The position numbers were made by a program. From Escherichia coli (lineage in GTDB: Bacteria; Pseudomonadota; Gammaproteobacteria; Enterobacterales; Enterobacteriaceae), in assembly GCF_029227855.1 (NCBI RefSeq), contig NZ_CP074356.1: 64,000 nt of DNA, one strand, 5' to 3'. Numbering within the stretch: the stretch's first letter is position 1; every line of letters begins with the position of its first letter. Below, in pieces: positions 3,001 through 9,000 of the stretch.

Positions 3001-6000
3001 CGGCTCGAAACTTAAGGGCTTTTTGTGAATGAACTCACAGGTGCCAAATGAGAATTAAAATCACTCCTGAAAATTATTATTGCCAGCCCATTTATCACTT
3101 TTTCTCTTTTCTCAAAATCAGTGATTCCTTATCATTATGATAAAGAGTGCCGGAAGGATTAAATATTTGAACGCAATCGTTTAACTACGTTTTCTAAATT
3201 TCAGTATACCTTTTCTTCGCTGTAATAAAGTCGTCCGGAGTATCAATATCTAAAATTATTTCTGCATTTTCTATTTCGACGGAATAATGTTCTCCCATAA
3301 GGAGTGCCTGACGCATATTGGTGATATTGGGACGCTGGATTGCCTGCATCAGGCATGGCTTTGACACTAAAATCGGATGGCCGGGAATGCCATTATGGAG
3401 TGGCAGTATTGCGCCATCATTTCGTAACGACCAGATTTTTCTAAAAATATCGATAGTGAGGGTAGGCATGTCACCGTGGGTGAGAAAACAATATTCTGTT
3501 TTTACCGCGGGTACTGCGGCCTTTACTGATGTGAGTAAACCCTGCGCATAATCTGGGTTGTGAATAATAGTGATATTGCTCTGGTTCGCATAACGTTCGT
3601 GAAGTTCATTACCACGATAGCCGGTGACTAAAATAATTCGGCTACAAAACTGCAACGCATTTTTGATACTTGTATCAAGAATTGTTCCCTGTTGCCAGGG
3701 TAACATCATTTTCCATTGCCCCATTCTTGATGATAATCCGGCAGCGGTAATTATACAGTCGATGGCTGACATAGTGGTTCCATTATTTATAGGGGCTAAT
3801 AACGCCTGATAATTGCGTTACTTCCTGATGGATTAAGTTGGGGATAATTTATCCCAGAGAGGTCATAAAGACTCGTGAAAAGTATAGTTGACCCATCGGC
3901 ATTATTCATTGATTTAGGTGCGCAGAAACGTCCCACTGTGATTTCTGTTGTTGGTGCTGGGGGGAAAACCAGCTTGCTTTTTTGGCTGGCAGAACTGCTC
4001 CAGGCTAGCGGCAGGCGTGTGTTAATCACGACGACGACACATATGTTTATGCCAACGTCTCACTGGCCCGTGGTTTTCTGTCGTGATCCCGCCATGCTTC
4101 CTCATGCGTCTTTTATATCCCCCATTTCATTTTGTTTTCACAGCTGGAAAGCGAACCAGGGAAAAGTGCAGGGATTTACGCCAGAAGCGATTGATGCACT
4201 GGTACAACGATCAGAGTGTGACGTAATTCTCATTGAGGCAGATGGCTCGCGTGGAATGCCGTTAAAAGCGCCTGATGAGCACGAACCTTGCATACCTAAA
4301 AGCAGTTGCTGCGTGATTGCTGTGATGGGAGGACATATTTTGGGTGCAAAAGTGAGCACAGAAAATGTCCATCGCTGGTCGCAGTTTGCTGATATTACCG
4401 GGTTAACACCTGATGCACCCTTGCAACTGAGCGATCTCGTTGCGCTGGTTCGCCACCCTCAGGGCGCGTTTAAAAACGTACCGCAAGGTTGTCGGCGAGT
4501 CTGGTTCATTAACCGTTTTTCTCAATGTGAGAATGCGATTGCGCAAAGCGAGCTCCTTCAACCGCTGCAACAACACAACGTAGAGGCAATCTGGCTGGGC
4601 GATATACAAGAACATCCTGCAATCGCGCGCAGATTTGTGAATTAGCGGCCCGGGTATTCCGGGTTACTGAAAGGATATCCATTGAGGTTGGTATGAATAT
4701 TTTCACAGAGGCTGCAAAACTCGAAGAGCAAAATTGTCCGTTTGCGATGGCGCAAATTGTTGATAGCCGAGGCTCGACTCCCCGCCATTCTGCACAAATG
4801 TTAGTGCGCGCCGATGGCTCTATCGTCGGTACAATTGGTGGCGGAATGGTTGAGCGGAAGGTGATTGAAGAGTCGCTTCAGGCATTGCAGGAACGTAAGC
4901 CGCGATTATTCCATGGACGTATGGCTCGTAACGGTGCGGATGCTGTCGGGTCAGATTGTGGAGGTGCAATGTCAGTATTTATCAGCGTCCATGGTATGCG
5001 TCCACGTCTGGTGTTGATTGGCGCGGGGCATGTCAACCGGGCGATAGCCCAGAGTGCGGCGCTATTAGGATTTGATATTGCCGTTGCTGATATTTATCGC
5101 GAAAGCCTCAATCCTGAACTATTCCCACCATCAACCACGCTTCTCCATGCTGAGTCGTTTGGTGCGGCAGTGGAAGCACTGGATATTCGCCCTGATAATT
5201 TTGTCCTGATTGCCACGAATAATCAGGATCGTGAAGCCCTCGACAAACTCATTGAACAGCCCATTGCATGGTTGGGGTTGCTGGCAAGTCGTCGCAAGGT
5301 TCAGCTTTTCCTGCGTCAATTGCGTGAGAAAGGCGTGGCTGAAGAACATATTGCCCGTTTACATGCGCCTGTTGGTTACAACATAGGTGCGGAAACGCCG
5401 CAGGAGATCGCCATCAGCGTGCTGGCAGAAATATTACAGGTGAAAAATAACGCGCCGGGTGGGCTGATGATGAAACCTTCTCATCCTTCCGGACACCAGC
5501 TGGTGGTGATTCGCGGTGCGGGGGATATCGCCAGTGGTGTGGCGCTACGTCTGTATCATGCGGGTTTTAAAGTGATCATGTTGGAAGTGGAAAAACCGAC
5601 AGTGATTCGTTGTACCGTGGCGTTTGCCCAGGCCGTGTTCGATGGCGAAATGACGGTCGAAGGCGTCACTGCCCGCCTGGCAACCAGCTCTGCGGAAGCG
5701 ATGAAACTTACCGAACGCGGATTCATCCCTGTGATGGTAGATCCCGCCTGTTCATTGCTTGATGAACTGAAACCGCTTTGCGTGGTGGACGCTATTCTGG
5801 CGAAACAGAATTTGGGGACGCGGGCAGATATGGCACCAGTAACAATCGCGCTTGGGCCGGGCTTTATTGCAGGGAAGGATTGTCATGCGGTAATTGAAAC
5901 AAATCGCGGGCACTGGCTCGGTCAGGTGATTTACTCTGGTTGTGCGCAGGAGAATACCGGTGTTCCTGGCAATATTATGGGGCATACCACCCGACGGGTG

Positions 6001-9000
6001 ATCCGTGCTCCTGCTGCAGGCATTATGCGATCCAACGTGAAATTAGGCGATCTGGTGAAAGAGGGCGATGTGATTGCCTGGATTGGTGAGCATGAAATTA
6101 AAGCACCGTTGACGGGGATGGTGCGTGGCTTGTTGAACGACGGACTAGCAGTGGTCGGTGGTTTTAAAATTGGTGATATCGATCCTCGTGGTGAAACGGC
6201 TGATTTCACCAGCGTTTCTGATAAAGCCCGGGCGATTGGCGGCGGCGTACTTGAGGCGTTAATGATGTTGATGCATCAGGGCGTTAAAGCGACGAAAGAA
6301 GTGCTGGAAGTGGCTTAAATGAAAATGGCCGGATGGTATTACCCACCCGGCCTTTAAATTACTGACAAATCACCGTTCCGGTTTTGCCTTCAATCCCTTC
6401 TTTCGCTTTGCTCAATACGGTAATCAGTGCTTCACGACCTGCGCGAGAGCGAGCAAACGAGGCGGCAGCTTCCACTTTAGGCAGCATAGAACCTTTCGCA
6501 AAATGACCTTCTTCGATAAAGCGTTCAGCATCACTTAATGACAGGCGATCGAGCCACTGTTCATTCTCTTTACCGAAGTTAATGGCCACTTTTTCTACCG
6601 CAGTCAGAATGATCAGCATATCGGCATCAATCATTTCTGCTAAACGGGCGCTGGCCCAGTCTTTATCGATAACCGCACTGGCACCACGCAGGTGGTTACC
6701 TTCACGAATAACAGGGATACCACCACCGCCAACGGTGATCACCACCTGGCCTGCATCTACCAACGCTTTAACCGTTTCTTTTTCAATGATATCAACCGGT
6801 TTTGGCGAGGCAACAACACGGCGATAGCCGCGACCAGCATCTTCTTTCAGAGTGTAACCCTGTTTTGTCAGTTGCTCTGCTTCTTGCTCGGTAAAGAACG
6901 AACCGATCGGCTTGGTCGGGTTGAGGAATGCCGGATCGTTAGCGTCGACTTCGACCTGGGTAACCAGCGTTGCTACAGGTTTATTAATGCCACGAGAAAG
7001 CAGTTCTTCTCTTAAGGCATTTTGTAGATCGTAACCAATATAACCCTGGCTTAAGGCAACACAGACAGACATCGGCAGCATTGGCGAGTGCGCTTCAGTT
7101 TTTGCGGCAGCTTCAAAGGCCTGGTTAATCATGCCCACCTGCGGCCCGTTACCATGAGTGACGATAACTTCATGTCCTTGGGCAATTAAATCAACAATTG
7201 CCTGAGAAGTAATTTTTACCGCTTTCATTTGTCCGGCCAGGTCATCGCCCAGCGCATTCCCGCCCAGGGCGAGAACAATTTTCTTACTCATTTTTCCTCA
7301 CTCATCATTCTTGATTGTGTATAGATCCCTGGCAGTGGTTAGAGCACGGGAGGGACAAACGGTTTGCGTCGCAGGAATCGACCTCGCCCGGCTTTGCCTG
7401 TAAAGGTGCCGTCACAGAAAATCGTTTCACCACGGGATAAGGTTCTGACAATCGCGCCCTGACAGGTAAAACCCTCCCATGGCGAGTAGTCGGCGTTGTC
7501 GTGGAGATGGCGATGCTGAATTTGTTGGCTCTGACGTGGGTCGATAATCACCACGTCGCCATCGGAACCGGGCGCTAATAATCCTTTTTGCGGCCACAGG
7601 CCAAACAGCCTGGCGGGCATTGCGCTGGTTAATTCAACAAAGCGTTCCGGTGTTATACGTCCCGTCATCACTCCACTGGAAAACAGTAACTGCATGCGGT
7701 TTTCCACACCGGGTAAGCCATTTGGGCAGCGACTGAAATCGCCTTTAGAAATTTGCAGGCGTTGAGCCATCGAGAAGGTGCAGTGATCGGTTGCCACCAC
7801 GTCAATCGCACCATCGCTGATGCCACACCACAGTTTGTCCTGCTCGCGTACGTTACGCAGCGGTGGGCTAAGAATGAACTTAATGCCATCTTCTGTATCG
7901 TAACTGCGTTCGTCCAACAGGAGATATTGTGGGCAGGTTTCAACCCAGACTGGCTGGTGATTCGCACGGGCAAGACGCAGATAATCCAGACCTAAGCCGT
8001 TAGACAGGTGCACGATATAGAGCGGGGCGTTACCGGCAATTTGTGCCAGGTTAATCATGCGGGCGATGGCTTCCGCTTCGCATTCCAGAGGGCGACTCAA
8101 GGCGTGATAGCGCGGCGCGGTTAACCCTGCGGCGATAAACTCCGCCCGCTTGCTGGCGATAGCTGCGTCATTTTCCGGGTGTACGGTGGTCAGCGCGCCG
8201 GACTCATGCAAGCGGCGTAATGCCTGCAATACTTCATCATCGTTGAGTTTATATTGATAGGTTAAATAGAGTTTAAAACTGCTCAGTCCTTCTTCAACCA
8301 TCATCGGAATTTCGTCGAGGATAGCGTGATTAATATGTTGAATGACACCGTGAAAGCTGTAGTCGATGACTGCTTTGTGGGCGGCATAACCGCGATAAAC
8401 TTCCAGTTGATGGCGTAACCGGCAGCCATTTGGGCCAAATCCCATATGGTCAATAATGGTTGTTGTACCGCCACACGCAGCTGCGCGGGTACCGGTAAAA
8501 AAATCATCACAACTGCGCGCGATGCCGACATCAATATTGAAATGCGTATGGACATCCACGCCGCCAGGGAAAACGTAACAGCCAGTGGCATCAATTTCTT
8601 CATACGGGAGCTGCGGCGAAATATTGGTGCCCAACTGGCGAACAATCCCGCTTTCAATCAGCAAATCCTGTTTGGCTTGTCCATCTGCGTTAACGACTGT
8701 GCCGTTTTTGATCAATACGCGCATAGCAAACTCCAAAAACCCTCCGGCAAACCGGAGGGGAATAAGTAAAGAGTAATTATTCGGTTGCCAGCCAGCTTAA
8801 CGGGATTGCAGCGTACATCGCAGCACAGGTCACCAGGTGAGATTTCCAGGTTTTTTCGTTAGGCGCGTGTGCTTCAGGTTCTTTACCCGGGCCAAAGCCG
8901 ATGACCGGAATGCCGTGACGGCCCATGATGGATACGCCGTTAGTTGAGAAGGTCCACTTATCAACAACCGGCGCTTTGCCAAACAGCCCTTCGTAGGCAT

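What the first reader, a model, noticed from the sequence alone, without database searches (positions are those of the whole stretch)
3194..6318. mocA-yqeC-yqeB trio: markers of a selenium-dependent molybdenum hydroxylase beside xdh and ygfK
Seen in sequence: MocA (cytidylyltransferase for the MCD cofactor), the P-loop protein YqeC and the XdhC/CoxI-like YqeB lie together between ygfK and the catabolic operon. Established knowledge: yqeB/yqeC co-occur with labile-selenium molybdenum hydroxylases. Inference: at least one Mo enzyme of this locus, XdhA or a partner encoded beyond the window, probably uses a selenium-modified MCD cofactor.
Basis: partly seen in the sequence, partly recalled or inferred. 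Interest (0 to 1): 0.4.

Follow-up and report, generated by a model that had tools for sequence, protein, structure and literature searches.

The report
E. coli selenium–molybdenum cofactor maturation genes
These three genes are the already annotated E. coli mocA, yqeC and yqeB, a cofactor-maturation set proposed in 2008 to put selenium into a molybdenum enzyme of purine breakdown; that role is still unproven in E. coli.

Summary
mocA lies at 3194-3772 (-), yqeC at 3875-4645 (+) and yqeB at 4693-6318 (+). They sit between ygfK and the yqeA-hyuA-ygeYXW operon of an E. coli chromosome. All three pass NCBI's curated equivalog models.

The interpretation restates Haft & Self (2008), and RefSeq already names YqeB and YqeC as selenium cofactor biosynthesis proteins.

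Later work favours XdhD, which lies just beyond the window's left end, as the selenium client. E. coli XdhD-YgfM reduces urate to 2,8-dioxopurine. The Clostridium sporogenes counterpart is inactive when purified from a selD mutant. C. difficile ΔyqeB mimics ΔselD, but ΔyqeC has no phenotype. I found no test of selenium dependence in E. coli.

New here:
- Domain fusions link all the parts: XdhC::YqeB, YqeC::MocA in both orders, and YqeC::YqeB.
- YqeC is predicted to be a SIMIBI-type P-loop NTPase.
- The YqeB C-domain is predicted to be a Rossmann-like half plus a biotinyl-like barrel.
- Neither protein has a family-wide conserved cysteine.
- YqeB is far more constrained than YqeC.

MocA marks the cytosine dinucleotide cofactor (MCD), not selenium, and YqeC may be a MobB-like helper of MocA.

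Verdict: real, ordinary, already known.

The parts
1..2872 (-). 5' part of ygfK. Its product is the 2,8-dioxopurine reductase, annotated 'putative selenate reductase subunit'. The gene runs off the left end of the window; ssnA, ygfM and xdhD follow beyond it.
   Evidence: RefSeq annotation of the 99.996%-identical JNEC-KY178 record. Function.
2945..2961 (-). Sigma-54 -24/-12 element of the ygfK promoter (GTGGTGCGATTGTTGCT).
   Evidence: Exact match to the ChIP-seq site of Bonocora et al. 2015. It is the only match in the window.
3024..3039 (.). Perfect CRP-consensus palindrome TGTGAATGAACTCACA upstream of the ygfK sigma-54 promoter. This is a candidate site that has not been tested.
   Evidence: It is the only perfect match in the window. 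Glucose repression of the pathway is reported.
3194..3772 (-). mocA (ygfJ), the CTP:molybdopterin cytidylyltransferase that makes the MCD cofactor.
   Evidence: TIGR03310 210.6 bits against a cut-off of 186.45. PF12804. 96.9% identical to K-12 MocA. Activity of the K-12 protein is cited (ref. 34 there).
3773..3874 (.). 102-bp divergent intergenic region between mocA and yqeC. It presumably holds both promoters.
   Evidence: 100% identical to K-12. One weak sigma-70-like match at 3786-3813, no more than expected by chance.
3875..4645 (+). yqeC, a P-loop NTPase of the TIGR03172/PF19842 family. The Walker A motif GAGGKTS is at aa 27-33 (nt 3953-3973).
4276..4292 (+). Sigma-54 promoter inside yqeC (TGAGCACGAACCTTGCA). 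It drives a separate yqeB mRNA with a ~400-nt leader.
   Evidence: Exact match to the K-12 site. In K-12, mutating the site abolished detectable YqeB protein.
4693..5475 (+). yqeB, N-terminal half: an XdhC/CoxI-like molybdenum cofactor chaperone module. XdhC_CoxI covers aa 12-74 and the XdhC_C Rossmann domain covers aa 106-247.
   Evidence: Pfam. PDB relatives 2we7 and 3on5. TIGR02964 at 110.8 bits, below its cut-off.
5503..6270 (+). yqeB, C-terminal half: the TIGR03309 'EF2563/YqeB' domain (aa 271-526). This is the selD-linked part of the protein. The full yqeB CDS is 4693-6318.
6327..6352 (.). GC-rich hairpin between the convergent genes yqeB and yqeA, probably a bidirectional terminator.
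   Evidence: Terminator scan. The same hairpin is duplicated around a 180-bp insert in K-12.
12966..14744 (+). ygeV, the sigma-54 enhancer-binding protein of the locus (context).
14784..18446 (-). xdhCBA, the xanthine dehydrogenase and a possible second client of the trio (context).
   Evidence: ΔxdhA blocks xanthine consumption.

Best explanation
The trio is E. coli's copy of a widely conserved module that matures the cofactor of xanthine-oxidase-family molybdenum enzymes used in anaerobic purine breakdown.

Step 1 (shown for the 97%-identical K-12 protein): MocA adds CMP to Mo-molybdopterin, giving MCD.

Step 2 (inferred from homology to XdhC and PaoD): the N-terminal XdhC-like half of YqeB holds MCD and later inserts it into the apo-enzyme.

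Step 3 (inferred): the C-terminal TIGR03309 half of YqeB installs the labile selenium ligand on molybdenum. The basis is its restriction to selD-positive genomes, the match between ΔyqeB and ΔselD in C. difficile, and the inactivity of the orthologous enzyme from a selD mutant. Neither YqeB nor YqeC has a family-wide conserved cysteine. I therefore favour direct use of SelD's selenophosphate (Mo=O + SePO3 -> Mo=Se + phosphate) over a cysteine perselenide relay of the NifS/XdhC kind.

Step 4 (inferred): YqeC, a SIMIBI-type P-loop NTPase often fused to MocA or YqeB, couples nucleotide hydrolysis to hand-over between MocA and YqeB. It is helpful but probably not essential, as MobB is for MobA.

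Step 5 (inferred by orthology): the main client is XdhD-YgfM, the urate -> 2,8-dioxopurine reductase encoded just left of the window. XdhABC is a possible second client.

yqeB can be expressed without yqeC from a sigma-54 promoter inside yqeC.
For: - Gene identities.
- Identity to the K-12 proteins used in experiments: 96.9% MocA, 97.3% YqeC, 99.8% YqeB.
- The module is conserved across phyla. Moorella has split XdhC, a YqeC::MocA fusion, YqeB and an XdhD-like enzyme. Psychromonas has the E. coli arrangement. A Sphaerochaetaceae contig has a yqeC-yqeB-NifS-like operon. A Comamonadaceae contig has mocA and yqeB beside ygeV/Y/W/X-hyuA-yqeA homologues. Another contig has an xdhC-yqeC-mocA-yqeB operon.
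- Fusions link every part: XdhC::YqeB; YqeC::MocA in at least 110 of the best 120 clusters; both gene orders; YqeC::YqeB.
- Folds: YqeC resembles SRP/FtsY, MinD/Get3/ArsA and the metallocentre NTPases UreG, HypB and CooC. The YqeB C-domain is a Rossmann-like half plus a BCCP-like barrel.
- No conserved cysteine.
- Literature: Haft & Self 2008; C. difficile ΔyqeB matches selD mutants; C. sporogenes DOPDH is inactive from a selD mutant; E. coli XdhD-YgfM makes 2,8-dioxopurine; the sigma-54 promoter inside yqeC drives yqeB.
- selD is present in 5425 of 5426 E. coli genomes.
Against: - I found no report that any E. coli enzyme contains labile selenium or depends on selD for this activity.
- Active XdhD was purified from E. 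coli by a protocol that mentions no selenium supplement.
- ΔyqeC has no phenotype in C. difficile.
- Fused YqeC::MocA genes occur with no yqeB or molybdenum enzyme within 10 kb.
- Peng et al. note that YqeB or YqeC alone may act in selenium-independent processes.
- The proposed chemistry of steps 3 and 4 rests only on predicted folds and conservation.
- Sequence similarity to the selenium-containing nicotinate dehydrogenase (3HRD) does not separate XdhA from XdhD.
Confidence: 0.65

Rival explanations
1. In E. coli the trio matures an ordinary sulfido-MCD cofactor. MocA makes MCD, and YqeB acts only as the shared XdhC-type chaperone for XdhABC and XdhD. The selenium link seen in clostridia and enterococci does not operate in E. 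coli.
For: The Leimkühler review treats YqeB simply as the possible XdhC-like chaperone shared by XdhABC and XdhD. No labile-selenium enzyme has been observed in E. coli. Active XdhD was obtained with no selenium supplement mentioned.
Against: The TIGR03309 domain is 53-59% identical to homologues from organisms where the selenium trait is supported. It is under very strong purifying selection in E. coli, with dN/dS 0.027. The family is restricted to selD-positive genomes. The enzyme catalysing the same reaction as XdhD needs SelD in C. sporogenes. Rich media contain enough trace selenium for E. coli selenoproteins (own knowledge), so the absence of a supplement proves little.
Confidence: 0.2
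2. YqeC is not a selenium factor. It is the MobB-like NTPase partner of MocA in dinucleotide cofactor synthesis, and selenium insertion needs only YqeB. This is a rival for the role of one part, and it is compatible with the main explanation for the rest.
For: YqeC::MocA and MocA::YqeC fusions are abundant and diverse, with identity down to 35%. Some fused genes sit in loci with no yqeB or molybdenum enzyme within 10 kb. ΔyqeC has no phenotype where ΔyqeB does. yqeB has its own promoter inside yqeC. YqeC evolves much faster than YqeB: dN/dS 0.30 against 0.02, and 37-62% against 53-59% identity over far narrower taxa. MocA is a MobA paralogue. YqeC and MobB align weakly over the P-loop and DxILVE motifs.
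Against: A YqeC::YqeB fusion also exists. yqeC is directly adjacent to yqeB in four of the five YqeB-anchored loci examined. Published profiling ranks YqeC first or second with YqeB against selD genomes. The ΔyqeBΔyqeC double mutant was only partly complemented by yqeB. The MobB similarity is statistically inconclusive (hhalign probability 3.7%).
Confidence: 0.4
3. The trio serves a selenate-reduction or detoxification system (YgfK-YgfM-XdhD as 'selenate reductase') rather than making a selenium-containing cofactor.
For: RefSeq still names YgfK 'putative selenate reductase subunit'. Haft & Self discussed this as the main alternative.
Against: XdhD-YgfM and YgfK now have defined sequential roles in urate degradation. 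Homologues of the reductase subunits do not track selD, whereas TIGR03309 does.
Confidence: 0.05

Closest known systems
Enterococcus faecalis EF2563/EF2564/EF2569 and Clostridioides difficile YqeB/YqeC: the 'Se-cofactor trait' markers TIGR03309, TIGR03172 and TIGR03310
   Same: The same three protein families, all above the curated cut-offs. They sit in the same purine-catabolic neighbourhood. yqeB has a sigma-54-type promoter in both E. coli and C. difficile.
   Different: E. coli YqeB is fused to an XdhC-like half, whereas most homologues are stand-alone proteins of about 270 aa. In E. coli selD is unlinked and also serves selenocysteine and selenouridine synthesis. Selenium dependence is genetically supported in C. 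difficile and C. sporogenes, but I found no test in E. coli.
Rhodobacter capsulatus XdhC and E. coli PaoD: Moco-binding chaperones of xanthine-oxidase-family enzymes, working with a NifS-like sulfurase
   Same: The N-terminal half of YqeB has both XdhC Pfam domains and matches the XdhC-like structures 2we7 and 3on5. The proposed role is the same: bind the cofactor, exchange the terminal ligand, insert into the apo-enzyme.
   Different: YqeB carries an extra 280-aa domain with no solved relative. It is not in an operon with a client enzyme. The chalcogen is proposed to be selenium from SelD rather than sulfur from a cysteine desulfurase.
MobA/MobB: guanylyltransferase plus P-loop adaptor for the bis-MGD cofactor
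   Same: MocA is a MobA paralogue (22% identity, E 3e-9). Each transferase gene lies next to a small P-loop NTPase gene. In both pairs the NTPase looks dispensable in mutant tests (C. difficile ΔyqeC; MobB from own knowledge).
   Different: YqeC is larger (256 against 175 aa) and forms its own family, PF19842. Its similarity to MobB is only marginal. YqeC also fuses to YqeB.
Metallocentre-assembly SIMIBI NTPases: UreG, HypB, CooC, ArsA/Get3
   Different: YqeC has no conserved Cys/His metal-binding motif. The HEPC cysteine is valine in 100 of 144 family representatives. This is a fold resemblance only, with no family membership.

Membership tests
MocA / TIGR03310 (molybdenum cofactor cytidylyltransferase) | Score above the curated equivalog cut-off, and a MobA-like NTP-transferase domain | tested here: met
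   210.6 bits against 186.45. PF12804 at 100.7 bits.
MocA / TIGR03310 (molybdenum cofactor cytidylyltransferase) | Orthology to the biochemically characterised K-12 MocA | tested here: met
   96.9% identity over 192 aa at the same locus. K-12 activity is cited.
MocA / TIGR03310 (molybdenum cofactor cytidylyltransferase) | CTP-specific cytidylyl transfer to Mo-MPT | not testable with these tools
   This needs an enzyme assay.
YqeC / TIGR03172 / PF19842 | Score above the curated cut-offs | tested here: met
   237.3 bits against 73.05. PF19842 at 145 bits against 27.6.
YqeC / TIGR03172 / PF19842 | P-loop NTPase: Walker A motif and a nucleotide-binding fold | tested here: met
YqeC / TIGR03172 / PF19842 | Role in selenium cofactor synthesis (the product name given by NCBI) | not testable with these tools
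   Indirect evidence is mixed. ΔyqeC shows no phenotype. There are many fusions to MocA and one to YqeB.
YqeB / TIGR03309 (EF2563 family) | Score above the curated equivalog cut-off over the whole 256-position model | tested here: met
   415.2 bits against 220, aa 271-526 on model positions 1-256.
YqeB / TIGR03309 (EF2563 family) | [quoted passage not shown] | tested here: met
   selD is in 5425 of 5426 complete E. coli genomes and the trio in 5175. This is uninformative within the species because selD is core.
YqeB / TIGR03309 (EF2563 family) | Located with yqeC, mocA, xdhC-type genes or molybdenum hydroxylase genes | tested here: met
   Seen in the window itself and in all five YqeB-anchored loci from other taxa.
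XdhC/CoxI chaperone family (YqeB N-terminal half) | Both the PF02625 and PF13478 domains | tested here: met
   70.7 and 118.6 bits. PDB relatives 2we7 (E 3.6e-27) and 3on5. The strict XdhC equivalog TIGR02964 is below its cut-off (110.8 against 161.6), so this is a family member but not an XdhC orthologue.
Selenium-dependent molybdenum hydroxylase (as applied to E. coli XdhD or XdhA) | Labile, cyanolysable selenium on the molybdenum centre that is needed for activity | not testable with these tools
   I found no E. coli data. The C. sporogenes enzyme for the XdhD reaction is inactive from a selD mutant.
Selenium-dependent molybdenum hydroxylase (as applied to E. coli XdhD or XdhA) | A sequence signature that separates selenium-type from sulfur-type enzymes | tested here: inconclusive
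   Both XdhA and XdhD match 4-hydroxybenzoyl-CoA reductase best. They match the selenium enzyme 3HRD no better than they match sulfur enzymes. The preprint also found no discriminating active-site residues.
MobB (considered for YqeC) | Detectable sequence homology to E. coli MobB | tested here: inconclusive

The most novel reading that the evidence does not exclude
The trio plus the XdhC-like half of YqeB forms one physical 'Se-MCD synthase' assembly line, as suggested by the fusion network XdhC::YqeB, YqeB::YqeC and YqeC::MocA. In this reading the cysteine-free YqeB C-domain is a new kind of selenotransferase. It would exchange a molybdenum oxo ligand for selenium directly from selenophosphate. 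YqeC would be a MobB-like, largely dispensable NTPase of the MocA step rather than a selenium factor. E. coli would then have a fourth, so far undemonstrated, selenium-dependent process: XdhD-dependent urate reduction.
Probability: 0.3. Interest if true: 0.55.

Novelty: already known. Interest (0 to 1): 0.25.

Why it matters
How labile selenium is put onto the molybdenum cofactor is described as the least understood route of biological selenium use. The pathway it serves is anaerobic urate degradation by gut bacteria, which is relevant to gout and hyperuricaemia. E. coli carries the full gene set in a genetically easy host, so the question can be tested there directly. The locus itself, however, adds nothing beyond what was published in 2008-2025 and is already written into RefSeq product names.

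Tried and rejected
1. A cysteine-based selenium relay, by analogy with NifS/XdhC. The only invariant cysteine of gammaproteobacterial YqeC (the HEPCIP motif) is valine in 100 of 144 broad family representatives. The YqeB C-domain has no cysteine column above 66% in 116 sequences, and E. coli has alanine at two of those positions. Rejected as a family-wide mechanism.

2. A biotin or lipoyl-type modified lysine in the BCCP-like barrel of YqeB. The lysine at the hairpin position is not conserved. Rejected.

3. Identifying the client enzyme by sequence. 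XdhA and XdhD give the same ranking of PDB relatives, and neither is distinctly closer to the selenium enzyme 3HRD. Uninformative.

4. Identifying the client by co-loss within E. coli. The trio (5175 genomes) tracks xdhD (5177) rather than xdhA (5317). But the one example examined is a single IS1-bounded deletion from ygfT into ygeV that also removes mocA and truncates ygeV. The remaining xdhCBA cannot be assumed functional, and the events are not independent. Uninformative.

5. Co-occurrence with selD inside E. coli. selD is core, present in 5425 of 5426 genomes, so this says nothing.

7. RNA elements and repeats in the locus. No Rfam family was found there and no meaningful repeats. The sigma-70 promoter and terminator scans are at chance level, apart from the yqeB/yqeA hairpin.

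8. An afdb50 fold search for selD-independent paralogues of the YqeB C-domain. The library was unavailable.

9. The primary MocA paper (PMC2755913) is not held. It is cited through the review.

Full report
WHAT IS THERE. The window is an E. coli chromosome segment. It is 99.996% identical over its first 26.5 kb, and 99.98% over the rest, to strain JNEC-KY178. The reported coordinates coincide exactly with three ORFs:
- mocA at 3194-3772 (-), 192 aa
- yqeC at 3875-4645 (+), 256 aa, with a GTG start
- yqeB at 4693-6318 (+), 541 aa

RefSeq annotates the same genes at the same positions. Each passes its curated NCBIfam equivalog model: TIGR03310 at 210.6 bits (cut-off 186.45), TIGR03172 at 237.3 (cut-off 73.05), and TIGR03309 at 415.2 (cut-off 220). 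Pfam agrees.

YqeB is a fusion of two parts. Residues 12-247 carry both XdhC domains and match the XdhC-like structures 2we7 and 3on5. Residues 271-526 are the TIGR03309 domain, for which Pfam has no model and the PDB holds no relative.

To the left lies the start of ygfK (start codon at 2872). ssnA, ygfM and xdhD follow beyond the window edge. To the right lie yqeA, hyuA, ygeY, dpaL and ygeW, then ygeV and xdhCBA.

REGULATORY ANATOMY. mocA and yqeC diverge from a 102-bp spacer that is 100% identical to K-12. Two experimentally mapped sigma-54 sites are present without a single change. One is the ygfK promoter at 2945-2961 (-). The other is a promoter inside yqeC at 4276-4292 (+). In K-12, mutating the site inside yqeC made YqeB protein undetectable. 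So yqeB can be expressed independently of yqeC. A GC-rich hairpin at 6327-6352 separates the convergent genes yqeB and yqeA.

SELECTION AND DISTRIBUTION. Against K-12 the proteins are 96.9% (MocA), 97.3% (YqeC) and 99.8% (YqeB) identical. The dN/dS values are 0.13, 0.30 and 0.02 (the counts are small). The same ranking holds between species. The YqeB C-domain keeps 53-59% identity to Moorella, Sphaerochaetaceae and Comamonadaceae. YqeC falls to 62% in Salmonella and about 40% in Aeromonas. The trio is in 5175 of 5426 complete E. coli genomes, xdhD in 5177, xdhA in 5317 and selD in 5425. One strain lacking the trio has an IS1-bounded deletion running from ygfT into ygeV.

COMPARATIVE EVIDENCE THAT THE TRIO IS ONE MODULE. 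All five neighbourhoods of distant YqeB homologues contain partner genes:
- Moorella: split XdhC, a YqeC::MocA fusion, YqeB and an XdhD-like Fe-S/Mo protein.
- Psychromonas: the E. coli layout, mocA (-) then yqeC and yqeB (+).
- A Sphaerochaetaceae contig: a yqeC-yqeB-NifS-like operon.
- A Comamonadaceae contig: mocA and yqeB beside ygeV, ygeY, ygeW, ygeX, hyuA and yqeA homologues.
- Another contig: an xdhC-NTPase-yqeC-mocA-yqeB operon.

Domain fusions connect every component:
- XdhC::YqeB, as in E. coli and other proteins of about 484 aa.
- YqeC::MocA in at least 110 of the best 120 clusters, with identity down to 35%.
- The opposite order, MocA::YqeC, which implies independent fusion events.
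- HAD::YqeC::MocA triple fusions.
- One YqeC::YqeB fusion.

The YqeC family has about 5,800 clusters at 50% identity. Some fused YqeC::MocA genes have no yqeB or molybdenum enzyme within 10 kb.

Residues conserved across the whole YqeC family are the Walker A motif, the TTTT stretch, K97, the EADG motif, K131, E137-P138, R167, G197 and N213. The HEPC cysteine is not conserved.

LITERATURE.
- Haft & Self 2008 named TIGR03309, TIGR03172 and TIGR03310 in this very E. coli region as accessory proteins of selenium-dependent molybdenum hydroxylases. They showed TIGR03309 is confined to selD-positive genomes. They also noted that no labile-selenium enzyme had been seen in E. coli.
- Peng et al. 2016 use SelD, YqeB and YqeC together as the 'Se-cofactor trait'. 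They caution that either protein alone may have selenium-independent roles.
- Johnstone & Self 2024: C. difficile ΔyqeB behaves like selD mutants on xanthine and urate, and ΔyqeC shows no phenotype.
- A 2025 preprint: the C. sporogenes urate -> 2,8-dioxopurine dehydrogenase is inactive when purified from a selD mutant, and every strain with the urate cluster has YqeB, YqeC and SelD.
- Li et al. 2025: E. coli XdhD-YgfM performs the same reaction. ΔxdhD accumulates urate and ΔxdhA cannot consume xanthine. Selenium was not examined.
- The Leimkühler review regards YqeB as the candidate shared XdhC-like chaperone of XdhABC and XdhD, and MocA as the MCD synthase.
- No paper in the library mentions xdhD and selD together.

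MOST LIKELY MECHANISM.
- Shown: MocA makes MCD.
- Inferred from homology: the XdhC-like half of YqeB binds MCD and inserts it into the apo-enzyme.
- Inferred from phylogenetic restriction, mutant phenotypes in clostridia and extreme conservation: the YqeB C-domain installs the selenium ligand.
- My own inference: because neither YqeB nor YqeC has a universal cysteine, I favour direct use of selenophosphate over a perselenide relay.
- YqeC, which is fused to MocA or YqeB in other organisms, most likely gates hand-over between the two steps and may be dispensable, as MobB is for MobA. Its similarity to MobB is only marginal. MocA is a clear MobA paralogue.
- The most probable client is XdhD-YgfM, beyond the left edge of the window. 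XdhABC remains possible. Sequence cannot decide between them.

VERDICT. Two refinements follow. MocA marks MCD rather than selenium. YqeC's tie to selenium is the weakest link. The finding is already known and already encoded in RefSeq product names, so it scores low. The open biochemical question it points to is real and could be tested in E. coli.

Noticed in passing
window 3024-3039: A perfect CRP consensus palindrome, TGTGAATGAACTCACA, lies in the mocA-ygfK spacer about 63 bp upstream of the ygfK sigma-54 element. It is the only perfect match in the window. A one-mismatch site lies at 12640-12655 in the ygeV-ygeW spacer. This fits the reported glucose repression of urate degradation.
   Followed up: partly
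window 6319-6358, compared with K-12 (L009 95-314): K-12 carries a 180-bp insert between yqeB and yqeA, flanked by a duplicated copy of the terminator hairpin GGCCGGATGGTATTACCCACCCGGCC. The window has the uninterrupted 40-bp spacer.
   Followed up: partly
window 2873-3874: mocA has 42% G+C and its two flanking spacers 39%. The neighbouring genes have about 49-53%. mocA also has the highest synonymous divergence from K-12 of the three genes, dS 0.10.
   Followed up: no
window ~22199-43173: A nearly complete ETT2 type III secretion island. In the 99.98%-identical reference strain, sctC (about 22945-24647) and the YscQ-family gene (about 30435-31422) are annotated as frameshifted.
   Followed up: no
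window 58294-59181: The OmrA and OmrB sRNAs (58294-58578) are followed immediately by an STnc490 RNA match (58589-58712) and an IS200C transposase gene (about 58723-59181). So an IS200 copy sits directly beside omrB.
   Followed up: no
window 19693-21900: tRNA-Gly is followed by a glycoside hydrolase family 15 gene and a GhoT/OrtT-family toxin gene, ahead of the ETT2 island.
   Followed up: no
L011 (E. coli HCM-27C-1) 13248-15177: An IS1-bounded deletion removes ygfT through the 5' part of ygeV. That takes out xdhD, ygfK, the trio and the catabolic operon, and leaves xdhCBA beside a truncated ygeV. About 250 of 5426 complete E. coli genomes lack the trio.
   Followed up: partly
proteins P0286, P0294, P0297, P0300, P0304, P0318, P0326; locus L013 71-2272: Fusion proteins of 733-773 aa combine a HAD-type hydrolase with YqeC and MocA. 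In Moorella a separate HAD gene sits just upstream of the XdhC genes. The role of a phosphatase-like domain in this module is unexplained.
   Followed up: no
L004 7958-10649: In a Sphaerochaetaceae contig, yqeC and yqeB are followed directly by a class-V aminotransferase (NifS or selenocysteine-lyase type) gene. This recalls the lyase gene near selD in E. faecalis.
   Followed up: no
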